IMG/VR virus record: IMGVR_UViG_2740892421_000008 | Span: 1-21,018 of that record | Strand: one strand, 5' to 3' | Origin: a virus | Lineage: Duplodnaviria; Heunggongvirae; Uroviricota; Caudoviricetes | Length of the DNA stretch: 21,018 nucleotides | Shown here: positions 1-20,460 of the stretch, in pieces | Layout of the letters: every line of letters begins with the position of its first letter | Position numbering within the stretch: position 1 is the stretch's first letter | Notes under the pieces: generated by a model | The model's database searches: none | What the model was told of the DNA's origin: nothing | Seen by the model: only the letters and a program-made list of their open reading frames with translations | Position numbers and translations under genes: made by a program

Positions 1-823
1 TTGTTTTCGTCTCGTCCATGACGGTTTTGACAGCCTTTGGTGTGGCTGCCAGTTCTTCGCTGTCGTTGTCTGTATCACTACAGAGTTGCACCAGGCCTTT
101 TTGCGTCGTGCTGGCGTTGGTTCCCTTCAGCTCATCAACTATCCGTTGCGCCTCGTCCCTGTGCTGTTTCGCGTTCTGCTCGCTTTTTGCAGCCGATTCG
201 GCGCTGGCTTTTGCCTCACCGGTCAGCGTTGCGGCTTCGTCGAGTTTATCGACCGCTTTCTGGACTATCTTATCGGCATCTTTGACCGCCTGTTCTGCCC
301 GGGCGGCATCCTGTGTGGCAGATAATGCCAGCAGCGCCACCTGATTTTTATCTTCGGCAACGGCTTCTGCATTCTGCTGTACGTTATCCGCCAGCGTCTC
401 GCAGTCGCTCTTAATTTGTTGCGCATCAGCGACATGTTGCCCGGCCTGTCGTTCGCTTTTCGCTGCCGCTTCCGCGCTTTGCTGCGCCTGCGCCACCATT
501 TCCTCAAAGCGTTTCACTACATCCGGCTTTAAATCGCCTTCATCAAGGGCAGTCAGAAAGTCGTTCAGCGTGCCGGGCTTTGAGTCGTCGTAAACCGAAA
601 TATCACCGACACAATATTCTCTTTCAATACATGACCGAAGATAAACGCCATATCTTCCGGTCTGAGCCTCAAATGCATATTCTCCTGCCGGCCCTGTCAC
701 CACTGTTGCCACCGTTTTCATAACCACTGCGGATGTATTCTGTCGGGCTTTCAGAATAATATGGTATCCGGACATGGGGAGTCCCGCACCATCCGTCAGC
801 ACACCCGAAATTAATACAGACAT
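1..823 (-). CDS. stf: Side tail fibre protein, lambda Stf-like (5' part only; 3' end runs off the window)
   Basis: Minus-strand frame from ATG 823..821 has no in-frame stop down to position 1 (checked triplet by triplet). AGGAAA Shine-Dalgarno lies 7 nt upstream, 24 nt after the stop of the upstream gene. Product starts MSVLISGVLTDGAG..., passes through an Ala/Gln/Glu-rich stalk and reaches KGLVQLCSDTDNDSEELAATPKAVKTVMDET, a motif I recognise from lambda Stf and P2 gpH fibres. Absent from the ORF track because it has no stop inside the window. Confidence 0.65.
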   Translation of the reverse strand, partial: MSVLISGVLTDGAGLPMSGYHIILKARQNTSAVVMKTVATVVTGPAGEYAFEAQTGRYGVYLRSCIEREYCVGDISVYDDSKPGTLNDFLTALDEGDLKPDVVKRFEEMVAQAQQSAEAAAKSERQAGQHVADAQQIKSDCETLADNVQQNAEAVAEDKNQVALLALSATQDAARAEQAVKDADKIVQKAVDKLDEAATLTGEAKASAESAAKSEQNAKQHRDEAQRIVDELKGTNASTTQKGLVQLCSDTDNDSEELAATPKAVKTVMDETKT

Positions 824-2145: not shown

Positions 2146-2614
2146 AGTATTTCAGCTCCAGTGTGAACGTTTTGTTCTTCGGCGCACCGCCGGGAAGAAA
2201 GGACGTGGTGTTATCTGAATAGGCGGTTGCCACGAAATACCCCATCACATCACCTGTGCTCGAGACCAGAAGATGCGGGGCCGGATTGTCATCCACCATC
2301 TGAACCAGTGTATCAAGGGCATCCATTCCCACACCGTCACGAAATCCCGCGTGCGCCATACCTTCAAGGGTTATTGTTCTGGCCCCCTTGCCGGTATACT
2401 GCAGCAGGTCGTTTTTTCCGATAAGCTGTTGTTCATCCCATCGCCATTCCATCGTGCGCTTCATGGCGTTATAAGCAGCAGTATCAATACTGAATTCAAA
2501 CTCACCAAACGACAGCATGACGCGGGAGGCGACATCCGTTAATGATCCCACCGCGTCCCATGCTCCACGCTCAAGCCGGTTTACGCCCCAGCCCAGCAAA
2601 TCCACCATATTCAC
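2120..2614 (-). CDS. U: Tail protein U (P2 gpU-like)
   Basis: 164-aa ORF between tape measure and X/D, the conserved gpU position; start overlaps the tape-measure stop by 4 nt. Sequence similarity to P2 gpU is weak by eye, so the call rests mostly on position and size. Confidence 0.65.
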   Translation of the reverse strand: MNMVDLLGWGVNRLERGAWDAVGSLTDVASRVMLSFGEFEFSIDTAAYNAMKRTMEWRWDEQQLIGKNDLLQYTGKGARTITLEGMAHAGFRDGVGMDALDTLVQMVDDNPAPHLLVSSTGDVMGYFVATAYSDNTTSFLPGGAPKNKTFTLELKYYGEKLADY

Positions 2615-4263
2615 CCCCAGAATGCATCACCATCGGTCATGCGGGAACGCTGACCAAAATTAATATCTCCCAGATTTTTCGTTACCCTGTCTGCCAGTTG
2701 TCCGGCATCCTCGCCGGGCTTCTGAGTGATGTTAAATTCCGCCCGTATCTGATATGTGGGTTTTACTTCCACCTGGCTGACACTGCCGGGTGTATACTGA
2801 AGAGCTGAGAGGGGATCCGAATTACCCTGCCCCGGATCTGCTGCATGAAGTCCATCAATGTAGGTGCGGGATTTCTCTTTTATCGCCTTAAAATCAGGTT
2901 CTTCTTTCGGCCCCAGCAGAGGGTCGAGAAATGCATCAAACTTTTTATCGTCATGATTCCAGGGGAGATAACCGCGGGTGTCTTTATAAGCCTGTACAAC
3001 CTGTTTCGTCAGGTCCGGATTTTGCCTGAGCAGTTCATCAAACCATTCTCCCTGACCGTTTTTCTGCGCCACCGCTCTCGCCAGCTCCGGCGACCCCATT
3101 TTTGCCAGATATTCCAGTACCTCTCGCCGGTCCTGACGCGGATCATCTGCCAGCCCCCACTCAATGGCTTTCTGCGTTATTCCGGCCAGAACTTTTCCAA
3201 ATTTCCACATCCAGGCAGCCATGTCGATCAGCGCCGGCAGGGCATCATCACGAATAAATGCCCGGATTTTTTCCAGCCCACCATTCTTAAACCAGGCCGC
3301 AAGGTCATCCGTCACCTGTTGAATATGTGGGGCAAGTTCATTACCCAGCTGTCCGCTGATTTCATCAATGGAAGAACTCAGAACATTACGGAGATTTGAC
3401 AGTGCCACATGTCCCTGAACTGCGCCATCAGCCCCTGCCTTTGTCACCAGGTTATAGCGTTTCTGCTCACTGATAAGCTCCCGATAAGTTTTCCCTGACA
3501 GACGCATCCAGGTCAGAATTTTATTGGCCTCACCACCGAACAACGCATCTGCCATTCCGGCAGCCACCTGTTCATTCTCTACCTGCAGTAAGCGATCAAA
3601 TAAAAATTCGACCTGCTCCTGGTTACTTTTCCCTGTCATCACCCCGGCTTTCAGTCCCAGTTTGCCAAAGACATCCTGAATGGCCCCTTTATCCGTGGCA
3701 CCATTATCATCGTCAAAAACCTTGTTCCGGTACTCCTCAAACAGATCACCGATGTTTTCACCGTTCAGCCCCATCAGTCGGGCCAGAGAATCCCATGACG
3801 CATAGGTTTCGTAATCCACCCCGTAACTCCGGGCTATCCCTGCCCGCTCTGCCGTTTCCGAATTCCGGTTCAGTACCGCGCCGGCACCTGCTGCCAGCGT
3901 CAACCCGGAACCAACCGAAAGCCCCATCCCGGTTTTAAGAACGGTCCCGCCCCGTCCTTTCCAGCGAGCCAGACGTTCCGCGCGCGCCAGCTTACGGTTA
4001 AATTTGTCCTGCTCCCCGGTGGCATCATGAATTTTTTTGCCCAGCTTTTCATACTGCTTTCGCAGATCAGTAATATCCTGTCCAGCCAGAACGCCAGCCT
4101 GAATTTTTCGTTTCAGTACGTCCTGCTGGCGTGTCAGACGAGCCACTTCCTGTGTTACCCCTGATAATCCGTGCTTCAACCCATCAACCGATTTTTTCCA
4201 CGACGGATCTATCGTGCCTCCGATCCGGATATTCGCTTTAAGGTTATCGCCCACCGTTGCCAT
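2611..4263 (-). CDS. T: Tail tape measure protein
   Basis: 550-aa ORF (MATVGDNL...) immediately downstream of the E/E' chaperone pair, predicted largely helical, with Gly-rich segments and a C-terminal region. Position is conserved in P2-type tails. Confidence 0.8.
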   Translation of the reverse strand: MATVGDNLKANIRIGGTIDPSWKKSVDGLKHGLSGVTQEVARLTRQQDVLKRKIQAGVLAGQDITDLRKQYEKLGKKIHDATGEQDKFNRKLARAERLARWKGRGGTVLKTGMGLSVGSGLTLAAGAGAVLNRNSETAERAGIARSYGVDYETYASWDSLARLMGLNGENIGDLFEEYRNKVFDDDNGATDKGAIQDVFGKLGLKAGVMTGKSNQEQVEFLFDRLLQVENEQVAAGMADALFGGEANKILTWMRLSGKTYRELISEQKRYNLVTKAGADGAVQGHVALSNLRNVLSSSIDEISGQLGNELAPHIQQVTDDLAAWFKNGGLEKIRAFIRDDALPALIDMAAWMWKFGKVLAGITQKAIEWGLADDPRQDRREVLEYLAKMGSPELARAVAQKNGQGEWFDELLRQNPDLTKQVVQAYKDTRGYLPWNHDDKKFDAFLDPLLGPKEEPDFKAIKEKSRTYIDGLHAADPGQGNSDPLSALQYTPGSVSQVEVKPTYQIRAEFNITQKPGEDAGQLADRVTKNLGDINFGQRSRMTDGDAFWG

Positions 4264-4689
4264 AACATCGCTTCCTCTCTTCCGACTCTGCCAGCATCAT
4301 TGCCACAAAATCCGTATACGGCAGCGCCATCACATCTCCGGGAGACCACCCGAACCAGGCACCGGCACGCCGTATCGCTGTCAGGATGCTTTCTTCTTCC
4401 GCCGGACCGGCGGCAGCAAAAAAACATTAAACTGACGCTCCAGGGCCAGGTAATCACACGCTTCCATGTTCATCATGTCTGCCGCGTCCATCCCACACAG
4501 ACCGGCAATCATATCCAGATCAGCCTCTGCTTCCGGTTTGTTACTCCGGCGATGCAACAGACGATCGCGGACAGTGGGCGCACGCATAGTGACGTGCGTG
4601 ATCGTCTGTCCTGATGCGGTGACATACGGCACGGATAACACAATTTCCACGCTGCTGGCAGGAACGCTGTTTTTTTCCGACATAAGCAT
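4244..4689 (-). CDS. E': Tail assembly chaperone E+E' fusion made by programmed -1 frameshift (predicted)
   Basis: My translation of the -1 frame from the slippery site gives a 57-codon extension (AAAGPAEEESILTAIRRAGAWFGWSPGDVMALPYTDFVAMMLAESEERKRCYGNGGR) ending at TAA 4246..4244, 17 nt past the tape-measure ATG. It has no start codon of its own. Predicted fusion is about 145 aa against 142 aa for P2 E+E'. Confidence 0.55.
4381..4689 (-). CDS. E: Tail assembly chaperone E (P2 gpE-like), zero-frame product
   Basis: 102-aa ORF between the tube gene and tape measure. Its 3' end contains a T7G run (minus-strand GTTTTTTTG, + coordinates 4417..4425) 34 nt before the stop. Confidence 0.75.
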   Translation of the reverse strand: MLMSEKNSVPASSVEIVLSVPYVTASGQTITHVTMRAPTVRDRLLHRRSNKPEAEADLDMIAGLCGMDAADMMNMEACDYLALERQFNVFLLPPVRRKKKAS

Positions 4690-4742
4690 CTCCTTTAAAA
4701 AAGAAAAGGCGGCCTGAGCCGCCTGAATGACAGGATCCCGGA

Positions 4743-5261
4743 TTAAACCCGGATGATTTTTTTCAGATCCGCCAGAACATTAACGCCATTAATACGACGT
4801 ACAAACTCCTCCGGAATAATGCAGATGGTTTCCACACCGTCGACAGCCTGGCGGTAATAACTCAGCGACATTTCCACCGTCACCGAGGCGTCTGCCTGCG
4901 ATGTTGCCGGACGTGCATCCGGCGTGATACTGGTGATCATCCCCTGCAGGGTTTCCACCTGTCCGCTGGTCGCATTCCCCACCTGATAGCCCTGGCGGAC
5001 AACAATCTCCGGCGAATAAAGCCCGGCCTGTAATCCCAGCAGCGTCAGCATGGCAACATCATAGCCATAAATCTTAAACGAACAGGTCAGCGCTTCCATG
5101 CCGTCATCCACTGCCACCGGTGCATCCATTGCGCCGGTTTTGATATCCACTGTCGTGATATTAATGGCTGGCGGCGTGTATTCATGCGCCCCCTGAAGGC
5201 GGATCCCGCCAGGAAGAAATAACGCCCATGCGCGCAACAGTTTTTTTTCACCCGTCATCAT
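4743..5261 (-). CDS. FII: Tail tube protein (P2 FII-like)
   Basis: 172-aa ORF directly after the sheath gene with a 4-nt stop/start overlap, the conserved sheath-tube order and a size typical for a contractile-tail tube protein. Confidence 0.85.
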   Translation of the reverse strand: MMTGEKKLLRAWALFLPGGIRLQGAHEYTPPAINITTVDIKTGAMDAPVAVDDGMEALTCSFKIYGYDVAMLTLLGLQAGLYSPEIVVRQGYQVGNATSGQVETLQGMITSITPDARPATSQADASVTVEMSLSYYRQAVDGVETICIIPEEFVRRINGVNVLADLKKIIRV

Positions 5262-6733
5262 ACTGTCAGTTCCTCCAGCGCCAGTTTATTGTTAATCATT
5301 GCCCGCAGTGTCAGGCGCTCCAGTGGTGACTTCGGCCCAAAGTCATAATCAATATACAACTGCCCTGCCGCCAGGGTTTCTGCAGTGTTCAGTTCATCGT
5401 TCAGCCATGCACTGCCACCGTGGATCGCGCCCAGATTTTTAAGCTGACGCATATAGGCATTAATGCTGCCAAGAATGTCGTCTGCCACATCCCGATCAAG
5501 CGGGCGATCGACATAAGGCAGCATGGCCTCCTGGATGCTGTCCTCAATCACATCTGCAGTGCGGCGTACCGGCTCAAAACGCCACTGACTGTGGGATGTG
5601 CACAGACGGTTACCCCAGTGTTTAAAACCGTCATGGCGAATAATGGTGGAGATATTTTCCATGTTCAGCAGGTTTGCCGTGCAGTTCTGCTCCCCGAGAA
5701 TAAACGTATCCACCTGCTCCAGACCGGTGATATTCATCACGTCCTGGTTTGATTTGGACCACCACCACCCTTTTTCGTAATCAATACGGGCACGCAGCCC
5801 GGCAGCACGAGCCGAATATGGACGAAATATCGTTTGCCCGCTGTCATCCGTCACTGACACGCGCGGACGCAGCAGCTCCACACGCCCACCAAATGACGCG
5901 CGCCGCTGAACCACATCCTGCGGCGTTGCCATTGAGGGCGAGTCAATATAGGCCACAGCCCGCAGCTTCGCGGCATACGTTTCCAGCGCCTTTGCCACGC
6001 CATCATCCTCACTGTACCCCGTGGCGATGAGGATGCGCGGTTGATAGCCTGTCACGCCCTTACTTTCTGTCAGCGCCTCCATGGCCTGAATCACCGCCGC
6101 ACGCTGTTCGGCCTCTTTCGCCTTTGTTTTACTTTCTGCGCGCACCACAATCACCAGCGCCCCAGTCTGGTCAAAAATATCTCGCAGGGCCGGGTATAAT
6201 GTTCCGGCTGTGCCCAGTTTCCCGGCCTGAGTAATGGCCCCTGCCACCACCACTGGTGTATTGACCGGGAACGCCTCATCTTCTCCGCCGGATAACGTCA
6301 GGCTGAACGGCAACACCACTTTATTTTCAGCGTCTCCTGCATTCAGGGTGCTGACAGCCGCCGTCACAGGCGAATCCCCCAGCGCATTCACCACTTCAGT
6401 CACACGGTCCGCCGTGGCGTTAACCTGGCTGTGTTCGTCCGTCCCCAGTGTTATCGTCAGGGTCGTACCTTTCAGCGAGGCCACTGTCTGCGCATTTTGT
6501 TCTGTGGCAGCCACAGCAACAACCGAAATCTTATTACCGGCCCGACCTTCCTGTTTCGCCGTGAAATCCAGCGCCGTTCCCAGCAGCCAGGAGCCGGCTG
6601 TGCCGGAAGCGCACACACCACCAGAGGCGTCCGGCGCTGTCCCCACCAGGCCAATCACTGCCGTGGAGATGGTCTGCACGGCAACCGTGCCTGTCGTCAG
6701 TTCAATGGTTTCAACACCATGTAATCCGGACAT
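5258..6733 (-). CDS. FI: Tail sheath protein (P2 FI-like)
   Basis: 491-aa ORF. The C-terminal two thirds (…RILIATGYSEDDG…RHDGFKHWGNRLCTS…LAAGQLYIDYDFGPKSPLERLTLR…) match the P2 FI sheath pattern (…RDGFRFWGNRTCS…[24 protein letters not shown]…). Strong GGGAGAAA Shine-Dalgarno upstream. Confidence 0.9.
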   Translation of the reverse strand: MSGLHGVETIELTTGTVAVQTISTAVIGLVGTAPDASGGVCASGTAGSWLLGTALDFTAKQEGRAGNKISVVAVAATEQNAQTVASLKGTTLTITLGTDEHSQVNATADRVTEVVNALGDSPVTAAVSTLNAGDAENKVVLPFSLTLSGGEDEAFPVNTPVVVAGAITQAGKLGTAGTLYPALRDIFDQTGALVIVVRAESKTKAKEAEQRAAVIQAMEALTESKGVTGYQPRILIATGYSEDDGVAKALETYAAKLRAVAYIDSPSMATPQDVVQRRASFGGRVELLRPRVSVTDDSGQTIFRPYSARAAGLRARIDYEKGWWWSKSNQDVMNITGLEQVDTFILGEQNCTANLLNMENISTIIRHDGFKHWGNRLCTSHSQWRFEPVRRTADVIEDSIQEAMLPYVDRPLDRDVADDILGSINAYMRQLKNLGAIHGGSAWLNDELNTAETLAAGQLYIDYDFGPKSPLERLTLRAMINNKLALEELTV

Positions 6734-6787: not shown

Positions 6788-7333
6788 TCAGGTATTTTGT
6801 GGCTGCTCAGGCCAGCTAATATTGTTGTATGTGGTCTTATCCGTAATAGCGCTGAAATCCATCGCCTGCAGCGATTTCGCGTAAATGCGGTACGCTTTCA
6901 GCTTCTCCCTGTCTTCGTCACTGATTAATCCCAGCAGCAGGTCTTTTCCCCATTCGCTGGTCATGATGCTGACCTGTTTTAACAGTGCATCACGCTCATC
7001 TTCCGCTTTAAGTTTGTAGTCAAAAACAAATTCATCATTGCGATAAAACCAGTAACCCGACGCCTCAATGCGACGATTGGCGGTAATATCCGGTAACTCA
7101 ATCACGCTTTTATTTTCCGGGCAGATTGAGGTGATGTCTTTTCCGACCCAGACCACCTCGCCAGTTTCAACATAAATAACTTTCAGAGTGTCTGGCTGAA
7201 ATTTTTCCTGGGCTTCGTGCCATTCCTGACCATCATCGGAGAACAGCCACAATAAAAATTTATGCTGTCGCGCCAGCTGGTATTGCTCAATTGTTTTAGG
7301 GTTTTGTGCCGTAATATTTTTTAAGTGCATCAT
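6788..7333 (-). CDS. tfa: Tail fibre assembly protein (Tfa / P2 gpG-like)
   Basis: 181-aa ORF immediately downstream of fibre gene H, with the size and C-terminal character (…YNNISWPEQPQNT) of enterobacterial phage fibre-assembly chaperones. Confidence 0.8.
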   Translation of the reverse strand: MMHLKNITAQNPKTIEQYQLARQHKFLLWLFSDDGQEWHEAQEKFQPDTLKVIYVETGEVVWVGKDITSICPENKSVIELPDITANRRIEASGYWFYRNDEFVFDYKLKAEDERDALLKQVSIMTSEWGKDLLLGLISDEDREKLKAYRIYAKSLQAMDFSAITDKTTYNNISWPEQPQNT

Positions 7334-7335
7334 AA

Positions 7336-8553
7336 TTACAAACTCGCTACATTCCGCCAGACCCCATTAATCAGAACCTGCACCGGGCGGGCATTGGCCC
7401 AGTCCATACTTTCACCACCGTCAAGACCGCTGATAAGGTGACCTGATGGTGCATTCCCGCCACGCCCAATACCAATGGCACCGCCCAGACGCACATCCTG
7501 TACACCGCCTGTTTTGGTTTGATAGCGGGCATCAAAGTTTCCGTAGTCTGACGGTGTTACCCGACCTGAAACATTCACTGCCCGGTTACTTTGTAACGCG
7601 CCATTCTGAAAACGGAATACGTGCTGACCATTGGCATAAACATCCAGCAGGCCGTCACCATTCTGTTTCAGGCCGGTATCGTTATCTCCGAAAGCAATTG
7701 AGTTTCCACCCAGCGCGTTCTGAACGCCGATACCCAGCGCACCATTGACCTGAGAACCGCCGCCAACAGACACTTTATGCGACATGGATATTTCACCCGT
7801 CCGCAGATTAATAGTGAACGGTCGAAGTGGACCAATATCGCCATTCTCGCCCTGACCTTCACTGGTAGGGATAAGGTGCAGGCACTCTTCCGAACGACGA
7901 AAAATCAGACCAAAGGCTTCGTTGAAAATCCTCAGCGCATTAACACCACGGATTTTCAGTTCCCCGGTCATGGTGTCACCATCACGCTGAACGGCACTTT
8001 TTGCCTTGTCCACCGTAGGTTTTAATCCGAGGTTTTCAACAGCCTCATCCTTGTCTTCCACATCCGAAAGATTCTTTTTTCGTTGCAGATAGCGTCTGTC
8101 TCCGATTTCCTGAGTAATAATGGCCCTGTCCGGATCAACTTCCAGCACCACGTTTTGTGCGTGCGTCAGCCCAAGAACCAGCGTCAGAATAACTTCCTTG
8201 ATAACAGAGTCCGTCTGGTCTGGTAAAAAGGTGTCCGGATAACGCCCGTATGCGATAAGCGTACCACTGTCGCTGATCATCCCCAGTTCACGAAGGGTTT
8301 TACCGGGGTATGATTTGCAGTCAATCACAACATCCCCGCTGATGAATCCCTCCTCCACCGCGCCGTCCGAAAAGGGTTCCTGTCCGAATTCGCCGTACAA
8401 TGATGTCATTGCTGCCATTTCATCCGGCGTGGATGGCAATGCCTGCCCGCCCCCGTCACCAAGCAGAACATGCCGGACGGTCACGGTTTGCCCGTTCTGA
8501 TATGCTGCTTCAATTTCTGCAGCGCCGGACGTTGTCAGAATCAGTCCATTCAT
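7336..8553 (-). CDS. H: Tail fibre protein (P2 gpH-like)
   Basis: 405 aa. The N-terminus (…TTSGAAEIEAAY…HVLLGDGGG…) parallels P2 gpH (…TTAGAAKLAAAT…MAVGDGGG…), and the C-terminal region (ALGGNSIAFGDNDTGLKQNGDGLLDVYANGQHVFRFQNGA…) parallels the gpH C-terminus (ALGGSSIVLGDNDTGFKQNGDGILDVYANSQRVFRFQNGV…). Confidence 0.85.
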   Translation of the reverse strand: MNGLILTTSGAAEIEAAYQNGQTVTVRHVLLGDGGGQALPSTPDEMAAMTSLYGEFGQEPFSDGAVEEGFISGDVVIDCKSYPGKTLRELGMISDSGTLIAYGRYPDTFLPDQTDSVIKEVILTLVLGLTHAQNVVLEVDPDRAIITQEIGDRRYLQRKKNLSDVEDKDEAVENLGLKPTVDKAKSAVQRDGDTMTGELKIRGVNALRIFNEAFGLIFRRSEECLHLIPTSEGQGENGDIGPLRPFTINLRTGEISMSHKVSVGGGSQVNGALGIGVQNALGGNSIAFGDNDTGLKQNGDGLLDVYANGQHVFRFQNGALQSNRAVNVSGRVTPSDYGNFDARYQTKTGGVQDVRLGGAIGIGRGGNAPSGHLISGLDGGESMDWANARPVQVLINGVWRNVASL

Positions 8554-17826: not shown

Positions 17827-19743
17827 TTATCCTCCACTCAGTGCAGCCGCGATTTCTTCCAGACTCATCTCATCGTCGTCCTGCTCATCTCTTCTGGCAC
17901 GGGCCAGTGCTTCAAGATCCAGCTGCCACCGCTGAACTGAAATACGCAGGGCAGCATAGGCATATACCAGGCAGTCGAGGGCTTCGTTGCGTCGCCCTTT
18001 TTTATCCCACAGCAGTTTCACCCTGCCATTAACCACCTTCTCCACCAGCTCTTCCGCCACGATCTGACGCGCCTCTTCTTCCGAAAAAATGTCGGGGTTA
18101 TCCGGAAAACGGACGGTATACGGGGCGGCTTCACTGACAGAGACCACTGGCAGGGCAAAACGGGCGTACAGCATTTCCTTGACGGTATCGGAGCCCACCT
18201 CACACAAAAACACACCACGCTGGTTGCGCTTTTTGGGCATGGTGATCACCGGCTTGCCGTACACCGATGCCCCTTTTATGGGAAGCACAAAAAAAGTGCC
18301 GTGTTTCCTGGAACGCTGATACACAATGTCCTGGTCGATACCACCGGTATCCCAGCAGACACGGGAAATGGAAATTTCAGTACCGTCAGCATGACGATAT
18401 TTTTTCCGGATCACCGTATCAACACGTTTAAGGGTGTCCTCGTCTTCCGGTCGCCCCATGATAATTTGCTTATCAATCAGAAAGGCTTCTTCGCCGGGAG
18501 CCCAGCCCCAGACATAAATTTCATAGCGATCTTTCTGGGAGTCGATCCCGGCGGTCAGGTAAACCACCCGCAGGGGAACCTGCGCACCATAGTGGCAGAC
18601 TTTTTCCAGCAACAACTCAAAGCTCAGTTTTTCTGCCACGGCCTCTTCATAGGGCTCCCCGAGCGTGGTGTTAATAAACGTCTTAACACCGTTCGGATCC
18701 TTCAGCGCATCCAGCCAGTCATAAACAATCTGTACCCAGGTGGTGAACGGACTGTACGCTGTCCACACGTGGTACGTGATTGAGCGCGGTGGCGGCATCT
18801 CCTCATCACCGGCGCTGTAAAATGCCAGGCCGTCGCGCGTCCACATCCCGGTATTGTCACAAATCCAGCGCCCGTCGGTCTGGTCAAGTTCCGACTGCCG
18901 GATCACACAGCCATTATGTTCACACAGGTAATACACCGTTTCCGGTTTACCCTTCTCCCATTTCAGGCCAAACGGCGTCGCATCATCGCCAAACTTCAGA
19001 TACTGGGCCTCCCCGCAATGAGGGCAAGGGACATAAAACCGCATGAAATGCGCAGATTCATTCGCGGCTTTCTCAATCTGGCAGGAGCCTTTAATTTTCG
19101 GCGTTGAGCCGCGTATGGATTTAGGCCATACCGAGCCTTCGATACGTTTATCGCCAAGCAGCGTCGGCGAGCCTTCTTTTTCCACATCCGGTTCAAACGA
19201 GGAGAGTTCGTCATAGCAGACCACATCCACAGATTTTTCACGGTAGTTTTTAGCTGCGGCACCGCCCAGGCACCAGAACCCCACGCCGGAGGAAAAACGC
19301 TTCAGGGTAAGTGTATTATCGCGGTGCTTTCTTCCGTACCATGGAGCCAGCTCCAGCAATGCAGGGACATCCCTGATCGTTGGCTCAACATGAGATTTCA
19401 TGAAATCTTCTGCCGCAGAATCTGTTGGCTGAAAAAGCAGACTGTTACGGGATTTATGCTCAATAAAATAAGCCTCCACCCCCAACAGCATTTTGGTGTA
19501 ACCAACGCGCGCCGATTTAATCAGATTAACGGTGCGGATCCGGTCATTTCCCATGCTGTTCATAATGGCAACCTGAAACGGCAGGGTTTCCCATTGTCCG
19601 GGAGTGTATGAAGATTCTTTCGGCAGATAATAATGTTGATCAGCCCACTGAACCGTCGTCAGTGGAACCGGAATATTGAGAGATAAAAGCCCTGTAGCTA
19701 TCGCACCGGCTGCATTAGCTGCCTTCTGTGCGTCTGAAATCAT
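17827..19743 (-). CDS. A: Terminase large subunit, lambda gpA-like
   Basis: Collinear with lambda gpA: …[25 protein letters not shown]…[14 protein letters not shown]…FIEHK…[16 protein letters not shown]…[14 protein letters not shown]…[14 protein letters not shown]…[25 protein letters not shown]…[18 protein letters not shown]. The track start (19785) adds 14 residues; I prefer ATG 19743..19741, which gives lambda-like spacing to the WAD motif and a 29-nt overlap with the small subunit. Confidence 0.93.
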
Positions 19744-20263
19744 CAATCCACCTGCCCACGTTTTCACCGGCTTTAGCTGCAACATTGGAGGCTTTCGCGA
19801 TTTCAGTTTTCACCACATCAAGGTGTGATGGTGAAATATCCGGATATTTACGCTGTAATGTCAGCGGCACACGTACAAGTATCCCCGAAATCTCCTGTGC
19901 CACACGTTGCAGAATGAAGGTAAACAATTCCGTTTCCAGCACCAGCCCTTCTTCACGGGCATTTTTCAGCTCCTGTGCGTCAGCCTGTGCTTTGGTGAGC
20001 CGGTAGCGTTCATAGTCAATGGTGCCGGGTTGTAAATCTGATTCTGCAGCCGCACGCAAATCTTCCAGTTCTTTGCGGAGCTTTTCGTTTTCGATATCTT
20101 TTTCCCGCTGCGCATACCACTCAATGGCTTCTGCAGTATTGAACATGGCTTCGATACCTTTGCCTCCCCCCGACAAAACTCTCAGCCCCTGACTTTGCCA
20201 GCCAGTGATTGTTCTGACATCGCACTCAAAAATTTCCGCCAGTTTCTTTTTGTTAACCTTCAC
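19715..20263 (-). CDS. nu1: Terminase small subunit, lambda Nu1-like
   Basis: 182 aa; (M)[11 protein letters not shown]…[20 protein letters not shown]…[48 protein letters not shown]… parallels lambda Nu1 (MEVNKKQLADIF…GGGKG…[47 protein letters not shown]…). The start codon is GTG (20263..20261) with GAGG about 10 nt upstream. Sits directly downstream of the cos repeats. Confidence 0.9.
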
Positions 20264-20460
20264 GGCACATATTCCTCACAAAAAGAAGAAAGGATCTCAA
20301 AACGCTTTTTTCAGCGAAAAATCACCGCTGCCAGATCCTTTCTTTTTTTTAAGAAAACCCTATTAAACAACAGGTTAGCCAGAAGAAGAACGGATCTGCT
20401 TTTTCCCTGAAAATTTTCATAAATAGCGCGTTTTTGCGCGTCCCCAGACCCTCGGTGTTT
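20264..20460 (-). other. cos site: predicted cosN (about 20436..20458) plus cosB with three Nu1-binding-type repeats (R3-like 20381..20399, inverted R2-like 20332..20349, R1-like 20281..20298)
   Basis: On the minus strand the region reads gggtctggggacgcgcaaaaacgCGCTATTTATGAAAATTTTCagggaaaaagcagatcCGTTCTTCTTCtg…, collinear with the lambda left end GGGCGGCGACCTCGCGGGTTTTCGCTATTTATGAAAATTTTCCGG…CGTTTCCGTTCTTCTTCG. The motif AGAAGAA(A/C)GGATC occurs twice in direct and once in inverted orientation, with 100 bp between the outer copies, as for lambda R3/R2/R1. Confidence 0.75.

What the first reader, a model, noticed from the sequence alone, without database searches (positions are those of the whole stretch)
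4244..4689. Programmed -1 frameshift (T7G slippery site) producing a tail chaperone E+E' fusion hidden from the ORF track
Seen directly: the gpE-like ORF contains GTTTTTTTG (minus strand; + 4417..4425) near its 3' end. Its -1 frame is open for 57 codons past that site with a plausible, non-junk sequence, and terminates 17 nt inside the tape-measure gene. Established knowledge: P2-type tail operons make E and E+E' by -1 frameshifting at a conserved T7G site, analogous to lambda G/GT, and the fusion is essential for tail assembly. The predicted fusion (about 145 aa) matches P2 E+E' (142 aa). The only track ORF in this region (4209..4457) is in the +1 frame and is arginine-rich junk, so automated annotation would likely miss or mis-assign E'.
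Basis: partly seen in the sequence, partly recalled or inferred. Interest (0 to 1): 0.5.

Follow-up and report, generated by a model that had tools for sequence, protein, structure and literature searches.

The report
Hidden frameshift tail-chaperone gene in prophage
An E. coli prophage tail operon carries the classic P2-type slippery site that lets ribosomes slip back one base and make a longer version of the tail assembly chaperone; the mechanism is well known, but this divergent version is left unannotated in public genomes.

Summary
On the minus strand, a 100-aa tail assembly chaperone gene (4683..4381, Pfam PF10109) lies between the tube gene and the tape-measure gene. It contains GTT TTT TTG (4425..4417), which holds the heptamer T_TTT_TTG in the same frame as phage P2 gene E. 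The -1 frame is closed by a stop one codon upstream of the T-run. It then stays open for 57 codons and ends at 4244, 17 sense bases inside the tape-measure gene.

The motif and the open frame alone are not beyond chance. Comparative evidence makes the case:
- The T-run and a 55-60-codon -1 extension recur in relatives from seven or more Enterobacterales genera.
- No indels occur among 25 distinct E. coli-type alleles.
- Variation peaks at the third codon position of the -1 frame (7/8/25), with dN/dS 0.24 there against about 2 in the other two frames.

The extension is only a remote relative of P2 E'. Pfam PF06528 does not detect it from the single sequence. Profile-profile comparison gives P = 2.5e-6 in the same register.

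RefSeq leaves the stretch unannotated in 35 of 38 complete E. coli genomes. Verdict: a new, divergent member of the well-known E/E+E' (lambda G/GT-like) frameshift class. It matters for annotation and is not mechanistically surprising. No experiment exists for this element.

The parts
4381..4683 (-). Gene E homologue: tail assembly chaperone, 100 aa. An upstream in-frame ATG at 4689 would give 102 aa, but it abuts the Shine-Dalgarno sequence AAGGAG at 4695..4690.
   Evidence: The ORF is listed and translated. It matches Pfam PF10109 Phage_TAC_7 at E = 2.2e-12 and phrog_166 'tail protein' at 6.5e-24. RefSeq annotates it as WP_001291421 'phage tail assembly protein'. Its dN/dS is 0.05.
4417..4425 (-). 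Slippery run GTT TTT TTG. The heptamer T_TTT_TTG spans 4423..4417 in X_XXY_YYZ phase and is the proposed site of the -1 shift.
   Evidence: The heptamer and frame are identical to those of P2 gene E. The run is invariant in 32 E. coli-type loci. T-runs sit at the homologous codons in other genera.
4244..4417 (-). E' extension: 57 codons in the -1 frame plus TAA (4246..4244). It overlaps the last 12 codons of E (4416..4381) and the first 20 nt of the tape-measure gene.
   Evidence: The translation is. Variable sites per codon position are 7/8/25, with no indels. dN/dS is 0.24 in this frame against 2.1 and 1.95 in the other two. The peptide is conserved across genera. hhalign against the P2 E' family gives P = 2.5e-6.
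4244..4683 (-). Predicted E+E' fusion, 146 aa. The junction is ...ERQFNVFL|AAAGPAEEE... if both tRNAs slip after the TTG codon is decoded.
   Evidence: This is inferred. The fusion is collinear with P2 E+E' (142 aa) across the shift site.
4427..4429 (-). TAA stop in the -1 frame, one codon upstream of the T-run. Together with the zero-frame TGA at 4383..4381 it bounds the stretch in which a shift must occur to 4426..4384.
   Evidence: See the frame 2 translation. The same arrangement occurs in Trabulsiella, Dryocola and a metagenome-assembled genome (MAG), where the -1 frame opens 40-43 nt before the E stop.
2611..4263 (-). Tape-measure protein gene, 550 aa, the expected client of the chaperone. 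Its start lies 17 sense bases before the end of E'.
   Evidence: The ORF is listed. It matches phrog_3654 at 9e-215 and several tape-measure PHROGs. Some RefSeq genomes annotate it as 'phage tail tape measure protein'.
4743..5261 (-). Tail tube gene (FII-like, 172 aa), immediately upstream. It gives positional context for the chaperone gene.
   Evidence: It matches Pfam PF04985 Phage_tube at E = 1.9e-23 and carries the corresponding RefSeq annotation.
4438..4441 (-). GGAG, 14 nt upstream of the heptamer. It is a possible Shine-Dalgarno-like stimulator of the kind known in dnaX. This is speculative.
   Evidence: The sequence is read directly. GGAG is present at the same place in Trabulsiella, Cedecea, Dryocola and Hafnia phage yong2. 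That conservation is confounded by the conserved Leu-Glu codons. It was not tested.

Best explanation
Proposed mechanism. Positions 4683..4244 (minus strand) are a two-product tail assembly chaperone gene of an E. coli prophage with a P2-like contractile tail.

1. Most ribosomes translate the 100-aa chaperone E and stop at TGA 4383..4381.
2. A minority, with tRNA-Phe on UUU in the P site and tRNA-Leu on UUG in the A site of U_UUU_UUG (4423..4417), slip one base backwards. Alternatively tRNA-Phe slips alone on the U-run.
3. These ribosomes continue for 57 codons in the -1 frame. The product is a 146-aa E+E' fusion that ends 17 bases inside the tape-measure gene.
4. By analogy with P2 E/E+E' and lambda G/GT, the shared E part coats the tape-measure protein. 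The rarer E' part recruits tube subunits. A fixed ratio of the two products is thereby set by the shift efficiency, and neither protein ends up in the virion.

Shown here: the sequence anatomy, homology of E to PF10109, conservation of the slip site and of the -1 ORF, and purifying selection on the -1 frame.

Inferred: that the shift is ribosomal, its efficiency, and the division of labour between E and E'.
For: 1. Anatomy. The heptamer is in X_XXY_YYZ phase. A -1 stop lies one codon upstream and the zero-frame stop 12 codons downstream, so the shift can only occur within 4426..4384. The T-run is the only slippery sequence in that stretch.
2. Same heptamer and frame as the annotated P2 site (PMC3091744: -1 shift at TTTTTTG gives E of 91 aa and E+E' of 142 aa).
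3. Context. The gene lies between tube (PF04985) and tape measure, followed by gpU, gpX and gpD homologues.
4. Conservation. 34 viral-contig loci and 11 genomes carry a T-run at the homologous codons and a 55-60-codon -1 ORF encoding ..RR(A/L)G.WFGWxPxxxxAMP..F... The genomes are from Trabulsiella, Cedecea, Dryocola, Serratia, Rouxiella and Citrobacter, and the set includes Hafnia phage yong2 and Citrobacter phage Chris1. E identity falls as low as 37%.
5. Selection. In the 117 nt that only E' could encode, 40 variable sites split 7/8/25 by -1-frame codon position, with no indels in 25 alleles. dN/dS is 0.24 in the -1 frame against 2.12 and 1.95 in the other frames. dS there (0.18) equals that of gene E (0.20).
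6. The conserved first half of E' precedes any ATG or GTG in that frame. It can therefore only be translated by ribosomes arriving from E.
7. Remote homology of E' to the P2 E' family. hhalign gives 65.9% (P = 5.7e-5) with the window's clade alone. It gives 88.7% (P = 2.5e-6) with the enlarged profile, in the same register from the shift site. Sixty column-shuffled controls gave P of 0.013 or higher.
8. tblastn of the fusion hits other phages as two pieces in two frames.
Against: - There is no experimental evidence for this element.
- The E' peptide does not reach any Pfam, NCBIfam or PHROG threshold on its own.
- Pairwise similarity to P2 E+E' is not significant (E = 0.16).
- No conserved or thermodynamically unusual stimulatory RNA structure follows the site (z = +0.29 here, -1.3 to +0.9 in 11 relatives). 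This matches what is reported for P2 (PMC3091744).
- Many relatives have only T5 followed by ATG (GTT TTT ATG). That is not a canonical tandem-slip heptamer, so the exact slip mechanism may be single-tRNA P-site slippage rather than dual slippage.
- A run of seven T's could also allow some transcriptional slippage.
Confidence: 0.88

Rival explanations
1. The same E+E' fusion is made, but by transcriptional slippage. RNA polymerase stutters on the run of seven T's and adds one U to a fraction of transcripts, which puts E' in frame. Ribosomes do not slip.
For: The window has a 7-T homopolymer. Homopolymer runs are known slippage sites for bacterial RNA polymerase (my own knowledge; reviewed in PMC5009743). 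No stimulatory RNA structure is evident.
Against: Relatives keep the arrangement with only 5 or 6 T's (P2 T6; Trabulsiella and Serratia T6; Citrobacter, Rouxiella and Hafnia phage T5). From my own knowledge, those runs are too short for appreciable polymerase slippage. What is conserved is a U-run in the phase needed for tRNA-Phe re-pairing. The P2 and lambda precedents are described as translational (PMC3091744, PMC5009743).
Confidence: 0.06
2. E' is an independent small gene, translated from its own start or by re-initiation after the E stop. No fusion is made.
For: In 3 of 38 E. coli genomes PGAP calls a 45-aa stand-alone ORF in this frame. P2-type E' is routinely annotated as a stand-alone 'GpE family phage tail protein'. 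A few stand-alone calls exist in a 1.84-billion-protein library.
Against: In the window the -1 frame has no ATG, GTG or TTG before the GTG-ATG of ..GDVMALP.., which lies downstream of the most conserved motif RRAGAWFGWSP. The stand-alone starts found elsewhere are at different, non-conserved positions. The -1 frame opens exactly at the T-run in several genera.
Confidence: 0.03
3. The -1 open frame is a chance by-product of composition or a decaying remnant with no function.
For: TTTTTTG is no more frequent than expected (3 against 4.9). About 8% of -1 frames in this window run 57 or more codons. There is no family hit for the peptide.
Against: Variation has codon periodicity and dN/dS is 0.24 in that frame only. 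There are no indels. The peptide motif is conserved down to 37% identity of the neighbouring E protein. The profile matches other E' families.
Confidence: 0.01

Closest known systems
Phage P2 genes E and E+E' (FETUD tail operon; Christie et al. 2002, cited through PMC3091744)
   Same: The position between tube gene FII and tape-measure gene T is the same. E belongs to the same Pfam family, PF10109. The heptamer T_TTT_TTG is identical and in the same frame, about 7-13 codons before the E stop. The -1 extension is about 57 codons and ends a few bases inside the tape-measure gene. Fusion sizes are similar (146 against 142 aa). No obvious downstream RNA structure exists in either (PMC3091744).
   Different: E proteins are about 25% identical, with a non-significant pairwise score. 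E' is not detected by PF06528, whereas P2 E' scores 2e-22; homology is visible only profile to profile. The window has seven T's where P2 has six. The overlap with the tape-measure gene is 20 nt against 8 nt. The phage has a lambda-like head module and a gpX gene between U and D.
Phage lambda G / G-T tail assembly chaperones
   Same: The logic is the same. [quoted passage not shown] The short part binds the tape measure and the extension binds the tail tube subunit (PMC5009743).
   Different: No sequence similarity to gpT was detectable (hhalign P = 0.28-0.43). The lambda slip site is G_GGA_AAG (seen), and lambda has a non-contractile tail. The relationship is analogy, or homology too remote to detect, not family membership.
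Mu-type and other tail chaperone genes that reach the extension by a -2 or +1 shift (Xu et al. 2004, cited in PMC2628397 and PMC5009743)
   Same: The upstream domain is also PF10109. The extension is clearly homologous to the window's E' (hhalign 96%, P about 1e-9).
   Different: In BcepMu-like phages PhiKM and KP12 and in Pseudomonas-type prophages the extension lies in the +1 frame. There is no U-run. Candidate shift sites are GGG_G or CUU_UGA.
E. coli dnaX -1 frameshift (A_AAA_AAG with upstream Shine-Dalgarno-like and downstream hairpin stimulators)
   Same: Both use tandem-slippage heptamers of the X_XXY_YYZ type in E. coli. The window has a GGAG 14 nt upstream of the heptamer, within the spacing range that stimulates dnaX (my own knowledge).
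   Different: No significant downstream hairpin is present. The efficiency expected here is low. The upstream GGAG was not tested and is confounded by coding constraints.

Membership tests
P2-type E / E+E' frameshifted tail assembly chaperone | The gene lies between the tail tube gene and the tape-measure gene of a contractile-tail operon | tested here: met
   The order is tube (PF04985) 5261..4743, E 4683..4381, tape measure 4263..2611, followed by gpU, gpX and gpD.
P2-type E / E+E' frameshifted tail assembly chaperone | The upstream ORF belongs to the gpE chaperone family (Pfam PF10109 Phage_TAC_7) | tested here: met
   E = 2.2e-12, 47 bits against a cutoff of 25. P2 gpE gives 1.5e-12 against the same model.
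P2-type E / E+E' frameshifted tail assembly chaperone | The slippery heptamer TTTTTTG is in X_XXY_YYZ phase near the 3' end of E | tested here: met
   The window has GTT TTT TTG at 4425..4417, 12 codons before the stop. P2 has GGT TTT TTG in the same phase. The site is invariant in 32 close loci.
P2-type E / E+E' frameshifted tail assembly chaperone | A -1 frame extension of about 50-60 codons ends at or just inside the tape-measure gene | tested here: met
   The extension is 57 codons, with its stop at 4246..4244 and the tape-measure ATG at 4263. Relatives have 55-60 codons.
P2-type E / E+E' frameshifted tail assembly chaperone | The extension belongs to the E' family (Pfam PF06528 Phage_P2_GpE) | tested here: inconclusive
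   The single sequence gives no hit at E of 10 or below. Close relatives give sub-threshold top hits of 0.058-0.068. Profile-profile comparison gives 65.9% (P = 5.7e-5) and 88.7% (P = 2.5e-6), well above shuffled controls. It is a remote relative, not a member by Pfam's threshold.
P2-type E / E+E' frameshifted tail assembly chaperone | The extension frame is under protein-coding selection | tested here: met
   Variable sites split 7/8/25 by codon position with no indels. dN/dS is 0.24 against about 2 in the other frames.
P2-type E / E+E' frameshifted tail assembly chaperone | Both E and the E+E' fusion are actually produced, and both are needed for tail assembly | not testable with these tools
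   This needs proteomics, reporter assays and genetics. No data exist for this prophage.
Lambda G/GT family (by sequence) | Sequence similarity of the extension to lambda gpT | tested here: not met
   hhalign of the E' profiles against lambda T gives P = 0.28-0.43. The relationship is functional analogy only.

The most novel reading that the evidence does not exclude
The window's E' would define a distinct, database-invisible subfamily of chaperone extensions. This subfamily bridges the P2 type (-1 shift on a U-run) and a Pseudomonas/BcepMu type in which the homologous extension sits in the +1 frame. In the Pseudomonas-type clade, 15 of 18 distinct gene ends read CUU_UGA, the release-factor-2 (prfB) type of +1 shift site. 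On this reading, one homologous chaperone gene has switched between -1 U-run slippage and prfB-like +1 slippage at a stop codon during evolution, and both versions are largely unannotated. The use of -1, -2 or +1 shifts by different tailed phages is already stated in the literature (PMC5009743). Only the specific CUU_UGA assignment and the homology across frames would be new.
Probability: 0.4. Interest if true: 0.4.

Novelty: new member of a known kind. Interest (0 to 1): 0.2.

Why it matters
The value is practical rather than conceptual.

- **Annotation gap.** An essential tail-assembly product of a prophage found in about 1.4% of complete E. coli genomes (74 of 5426) is missing from RefSeq annotation and from protein databases. 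Current family models do not detect its extension domain. Adding this subfamily to E' models would repair annotation in several Enterobacterales genera.
- **Comparative series.** The relatives carry T7G, T6G, T6A and T5-ATG sites, plus +1-frame versions. This is a ready-made natural series for asking how little slippery sequence suffices for the low-level frameshift that sets chaperone stoichiometry.
- **Mechanism.** It does not change the understanding of the mechanism, which has been established for P2 and lambda for decades.

Tried and rejected
- Near-identity search of the phage collection found nothing, so no isolated phage is close. The nearest are Hafnia phage yong2 and Citrobacter phage Chris1, at about 40% E identity.
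- NCBIfam gave no hit for E, E' or the fusion.
- PHROGs gave nothing meaningful for E'.
- Pfam on E' alone found nothing at E of 10 or below.
- PDB sequence search found nothing relevant.
- Rfam found nothing in 3500..5500.
- Downstream stimulatory RNA: a local 6-bp GC hairpin starts 3 nt after the heptamer, but the folding energy is ordinary (z = 0.29). The hairpin is lost in a close allele and there is no common structure in 11 relatives. I rejected it as a supported feature.
- Similarity to lambda gpT was absent.
- The fusion protein could not be submitted to the representative-library search because it is not a literal window translation. The E' peptide alone returned only six short stand-alone calls and some low-complexity noise.
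- A scan with P2 E+E' returned only near-identical P2 copies and was useless for a diverse profile. I used the 'GpE family' proteins instead.
- The Christie et al. 2002 paper itself is not held. P2 facts are taken from the P2 record and from PMC3091744.
- Structure prediction was not attempted.
Full report
**What is in the sequence**

Read on the minus strand, the region contains a tail tube gene (5261..4743). It is followed by a 53-nt spacer with a terminator-like hairpin, then an ORF 4689..4381. The probable start is the second ATG at 4683, six bases after AAGGAG. That is also the RefSeq start of the identical protein WP_001291421, 'phage tail assembly protein'.

Codons 89-91 of the 102-codon ORF are GTT TTT TTG (4425..4417). 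This places the heptamer T_TTT_TTG in X_XXY_YYZ phase. The zero frame ends 12 codons later at TGA 4383..4381.

The -1 frame has a TAA at 4429..4427, one codon before the T-run. It is then open through 57 further codons to TAA 4246..4244. The 550-aa tape-measure ORF starts at ATG 4263. E' therefore overlaps it by 17 sense bases.

All coordinates in the finding are correct.

**Is it more than chance?**

Taken singly, no. TTTTTTG occurs three times in the window against 4.9 expected. About 8% of positions in long ORFs here are followed by a -1 open run of at least 57 codons. The case rests on context and comparison.

**Context**

- Pfam identifies the flanking genes as sheath, tube (PF04985), gpU (PF06995), gpX (PF05489) and gpD (PF05954).
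- The ORF itself is PF10109, 'tail assembly chaperone proteins E, or 41 or 14', at E = 2e-12.
- The downstream 550-aa protein matches tape-measure PHROGs.
- The window is 100% identical to a prophage next to the trp-ompW region of E. coli STEC316. That prophage has a lambda-like head module and a P2-like tail module.
- It occurs in 74 of 5426 complete E. coli genomes.

**Comparison with P2**

The P2 record annotates E (91 aa) and E+E' (142 aa, -1 frameshift). The P2 sequence reads GGT TTT TTG in the same phase. This is the same heptamer, but with six T's rather than seven. PMC3091744 also gives 'TTTTTTG'.

P2 gpE hits the same Pfam model with the same strength as the window's E. The two fusion proteins align collinearly across the shift site, but not significantly (25% identity, E = 0.16). 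P2 E' matches PF06528 at 2e-22, whereas the window's E' gives no hit at all.

**Relatives**

A scan of viral contigs returned 65 loci. One genome per species returned 12 more.

- All 32 loci with 92-100% E identity keep GTT TTT TTG and a 57-codon extension.
- More distant members keep a T-run at the homologous codons and a 55-60-codon -1 ORF. Their sites are:
  - GCT TTT TTG in Trabulsiella;
  - AAT TTT TTG in Serratia rubidaea;
  - CGT TTT TTG in one Citrobacter;
  - GTT TTT TTA in Cedecea and GCT TTT TTA in Dryocola;
  - GTT TTT ATG in Citrobacter, Rouxiella, Hafnia phage yong2 and Citrobacter phage Chris1.
- The encoded peptides share ..RR(A/L)G.WFGWxPxxhhAMPhxxF...
- The common denominator is a U-run that lets tRNA-Phe re-pair one base back. 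Only some members allow classical two-tRNA slippage.

**Selection**

I compared 25 distinct E. coli-type alleles aligned over 501 nt.

- There are no indels.
- The T-run is invariant.
- In the 117 nt between the E stop and the tape-measure start, 40 variable sites fall 7/8/25 on -1-frame codon positions 1/2/3.
- dN/dS there is 0.24 in the -1 frame, against 2.12 and 1.95 in the other two frames.
- dS (0.18) equals that of gene E (0.20).

The stretch is therefore protein-coding in the -1 frame. Its most conserved part lies upstream of any possible start codon in that frame. Ribosomes must enter from E, within the 43-nt stretch bounded by the -1 TAA and the zero-frame TGA. The T-run is the only slippery sequence in that stretch.

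**Homology of E'**

- A profile of the window's clade against a profile of 45 P2-type 'GpE family' proteins gives 65.9% probability and P = 5.7e-5. It aligns residues 20-41 with 22-43, almost the same distance from the shift site.
- The window clade matches the extensions of more distant PF10109 genes at 96% (P about 1e-9).
- The merged profile matches the P2 family at 88.7%, P = 2.5e-6, score 31.1. Sixty column-shuffled controls never exceeded 15.1.
- There is no similarity to lambda gpT.

E' here is thus a remote homologue of P2 E' that current family models miss.

**Stimulators**

Folding of the 96 nt from the slip site gives an ordinary energy (z = 0.29). The 55 nt after the site in 12 representatives give z from -1.3 to +0.9 with no shared structure. 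This agrees with the reported absence of a structure in P2 (PMC3091744).

A GGAG lies 14 nt upstream of the heptamer, at a spacing that could act like the dnaX Shine-Dalgarno-like stimulator. It coincides with conserved Leu-Glu codons and is untested.

**Annotation status**

- The E'-only stretch has no feature in 35 of 38 complete E. coli RefSeq genomes. In three it carries a 45-aa 'hypothetical protein'.
- A search of 5.8 billion proteins with the fusion found only seven close copies of E and no fusion.
- An exhaustive search of 1.84 billion representatives with E' found six short stand-alone calls.

**Mechanism and rivals**

The best explanation is low-level programmed -1 ribosomal frameshifting on U_UUU_UUG that yields E and E+E'. 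By analogy with lambda G/GT, the shared part binds the tape measure and the extension recruits tube protein. The ratio of the two products is set by shift efficiency (PMC5009743).

- Transcriptional slippage on the seven T's could contribute. It is disfavoured because relatives manage with five or six T's.
- Independent initiation of E' is disfavoured by the lack of a start codon before the conserved motif.
- A chance ORF is excluded by the selection analysis.

**Verdict**

This is a correct and well-argued call of a known phenomenon in a divergent, unannotated family member. Conserved tail-chaperone frameshifts have been textbook material since Xu, Hendrix and Duda 2004 (cited in PMC3091744, PMC2628397 and PMC5009743). 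A specialist would not be surprised. The modest added value is the unrecognised E' subfamily and the natural series of slip-site variants. These include homologues whose extension lies in the +1 frame behind a CUU_UGA gene end.

Noticed in passing
L038-L067 and L164 (Pseudomonas alkylphenolica), at the 3' end of the PF10109 gene in each locus: In GC-rich, Pseudomonas-type relatives the peptide homologous to E' (hhalign 96% against the window's clade) lies in the +1 frame and begins right after the E stop. Of 18 distinct gene ends, 15 read CTT TGA, 2 read TTT TGA and 1 reads GTT TGA. This is the prfB-type CUU_UGA +1 shift motif. The literature states only generally that tailed phages use -1, -2 or +1 shifts (PMC5009743). 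I did not find this specific site described.
   Followed up: partly
L068 (Escherichia phage PhiKM) 1471..1888, L069 (Klebsiella phage KP12) 1471..1888, L037, L041: BcepMu-like phages and two further GC-rich loci also carry the E'-like peptide in the +1 frame. A GGG_G motif (for example GCA GGG GCT) lies in the possible shift stretch. Both phage records annotate only the upstream ORF and leave a gap before the tape-measure gene.
   Followed up: partly
window 4697..4724 (minus strand), between the tube gene stop at 4743 and the E start at 4683: A terminator-like hairpin AGGCGGC-TCAG-GCCGCCT is followed by TTTCTTTTTT, directly upstream of the E ribosome-binding site. A GC hairpin plus U-run sits at the same position, with different sequence, in Cedecea, Dryocola, Serratia, Rouxiella, Hafnia phage yong2 and Citrobacter phage Chris1. 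It may attenuate transcription between the abundant sheath and tube genes and the low-copy chaperone, tape-measure and baseplate-hub genes.
   Followed up: partly
L070, L071, L157-L160, L162, L163 (Hafnia and Citrobacter phages; Rouxiella and Citrobacter genomes): About half of the window's wider clade has only five T's followed by ATG (GTT TTT ATG) at the homologous position, yet keeps a conserved 59-60-codon -1 extension. This is not a canonical X_XXY_YYZ heptamer. It suggests that single-tRNA P-site slippage of tRNA-Phe is sufficient.
   Followed up: partly
window 1..823 and 6788..8553 (L001 10674..12724 and 18689..20454): The prophage carries two tail-fibre modules. One tail-collar fibre plus assembly chaperone lies in the P2 H/G position between baseplate gene I and the sheath gene. 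A second 'prophage tail fiber N-terminal domain' protein plus a DUF4376 protein lies after gpD at the prophage end.
   Followed up: no
P0072 and P0073: Two database proteins of 87 and 66 aa have the last 35 or so residues of this E' (..PGDVMALPYEDFVAIMLAEAEERKQCYGNGGR) joined to unrelated N-terminal sequences. They may be mosaic junctions or mis-called ORFs in variant prophages.
   Followed up: no
P0009-P0069: Even for genuine P2-type prophages, RefSeq annotates E' as a stand-alone 35-52-aa 'GpE family phage tail protein', with arbitrary start codons, rather than as a frameshift fusion with E.
   Followed up: no
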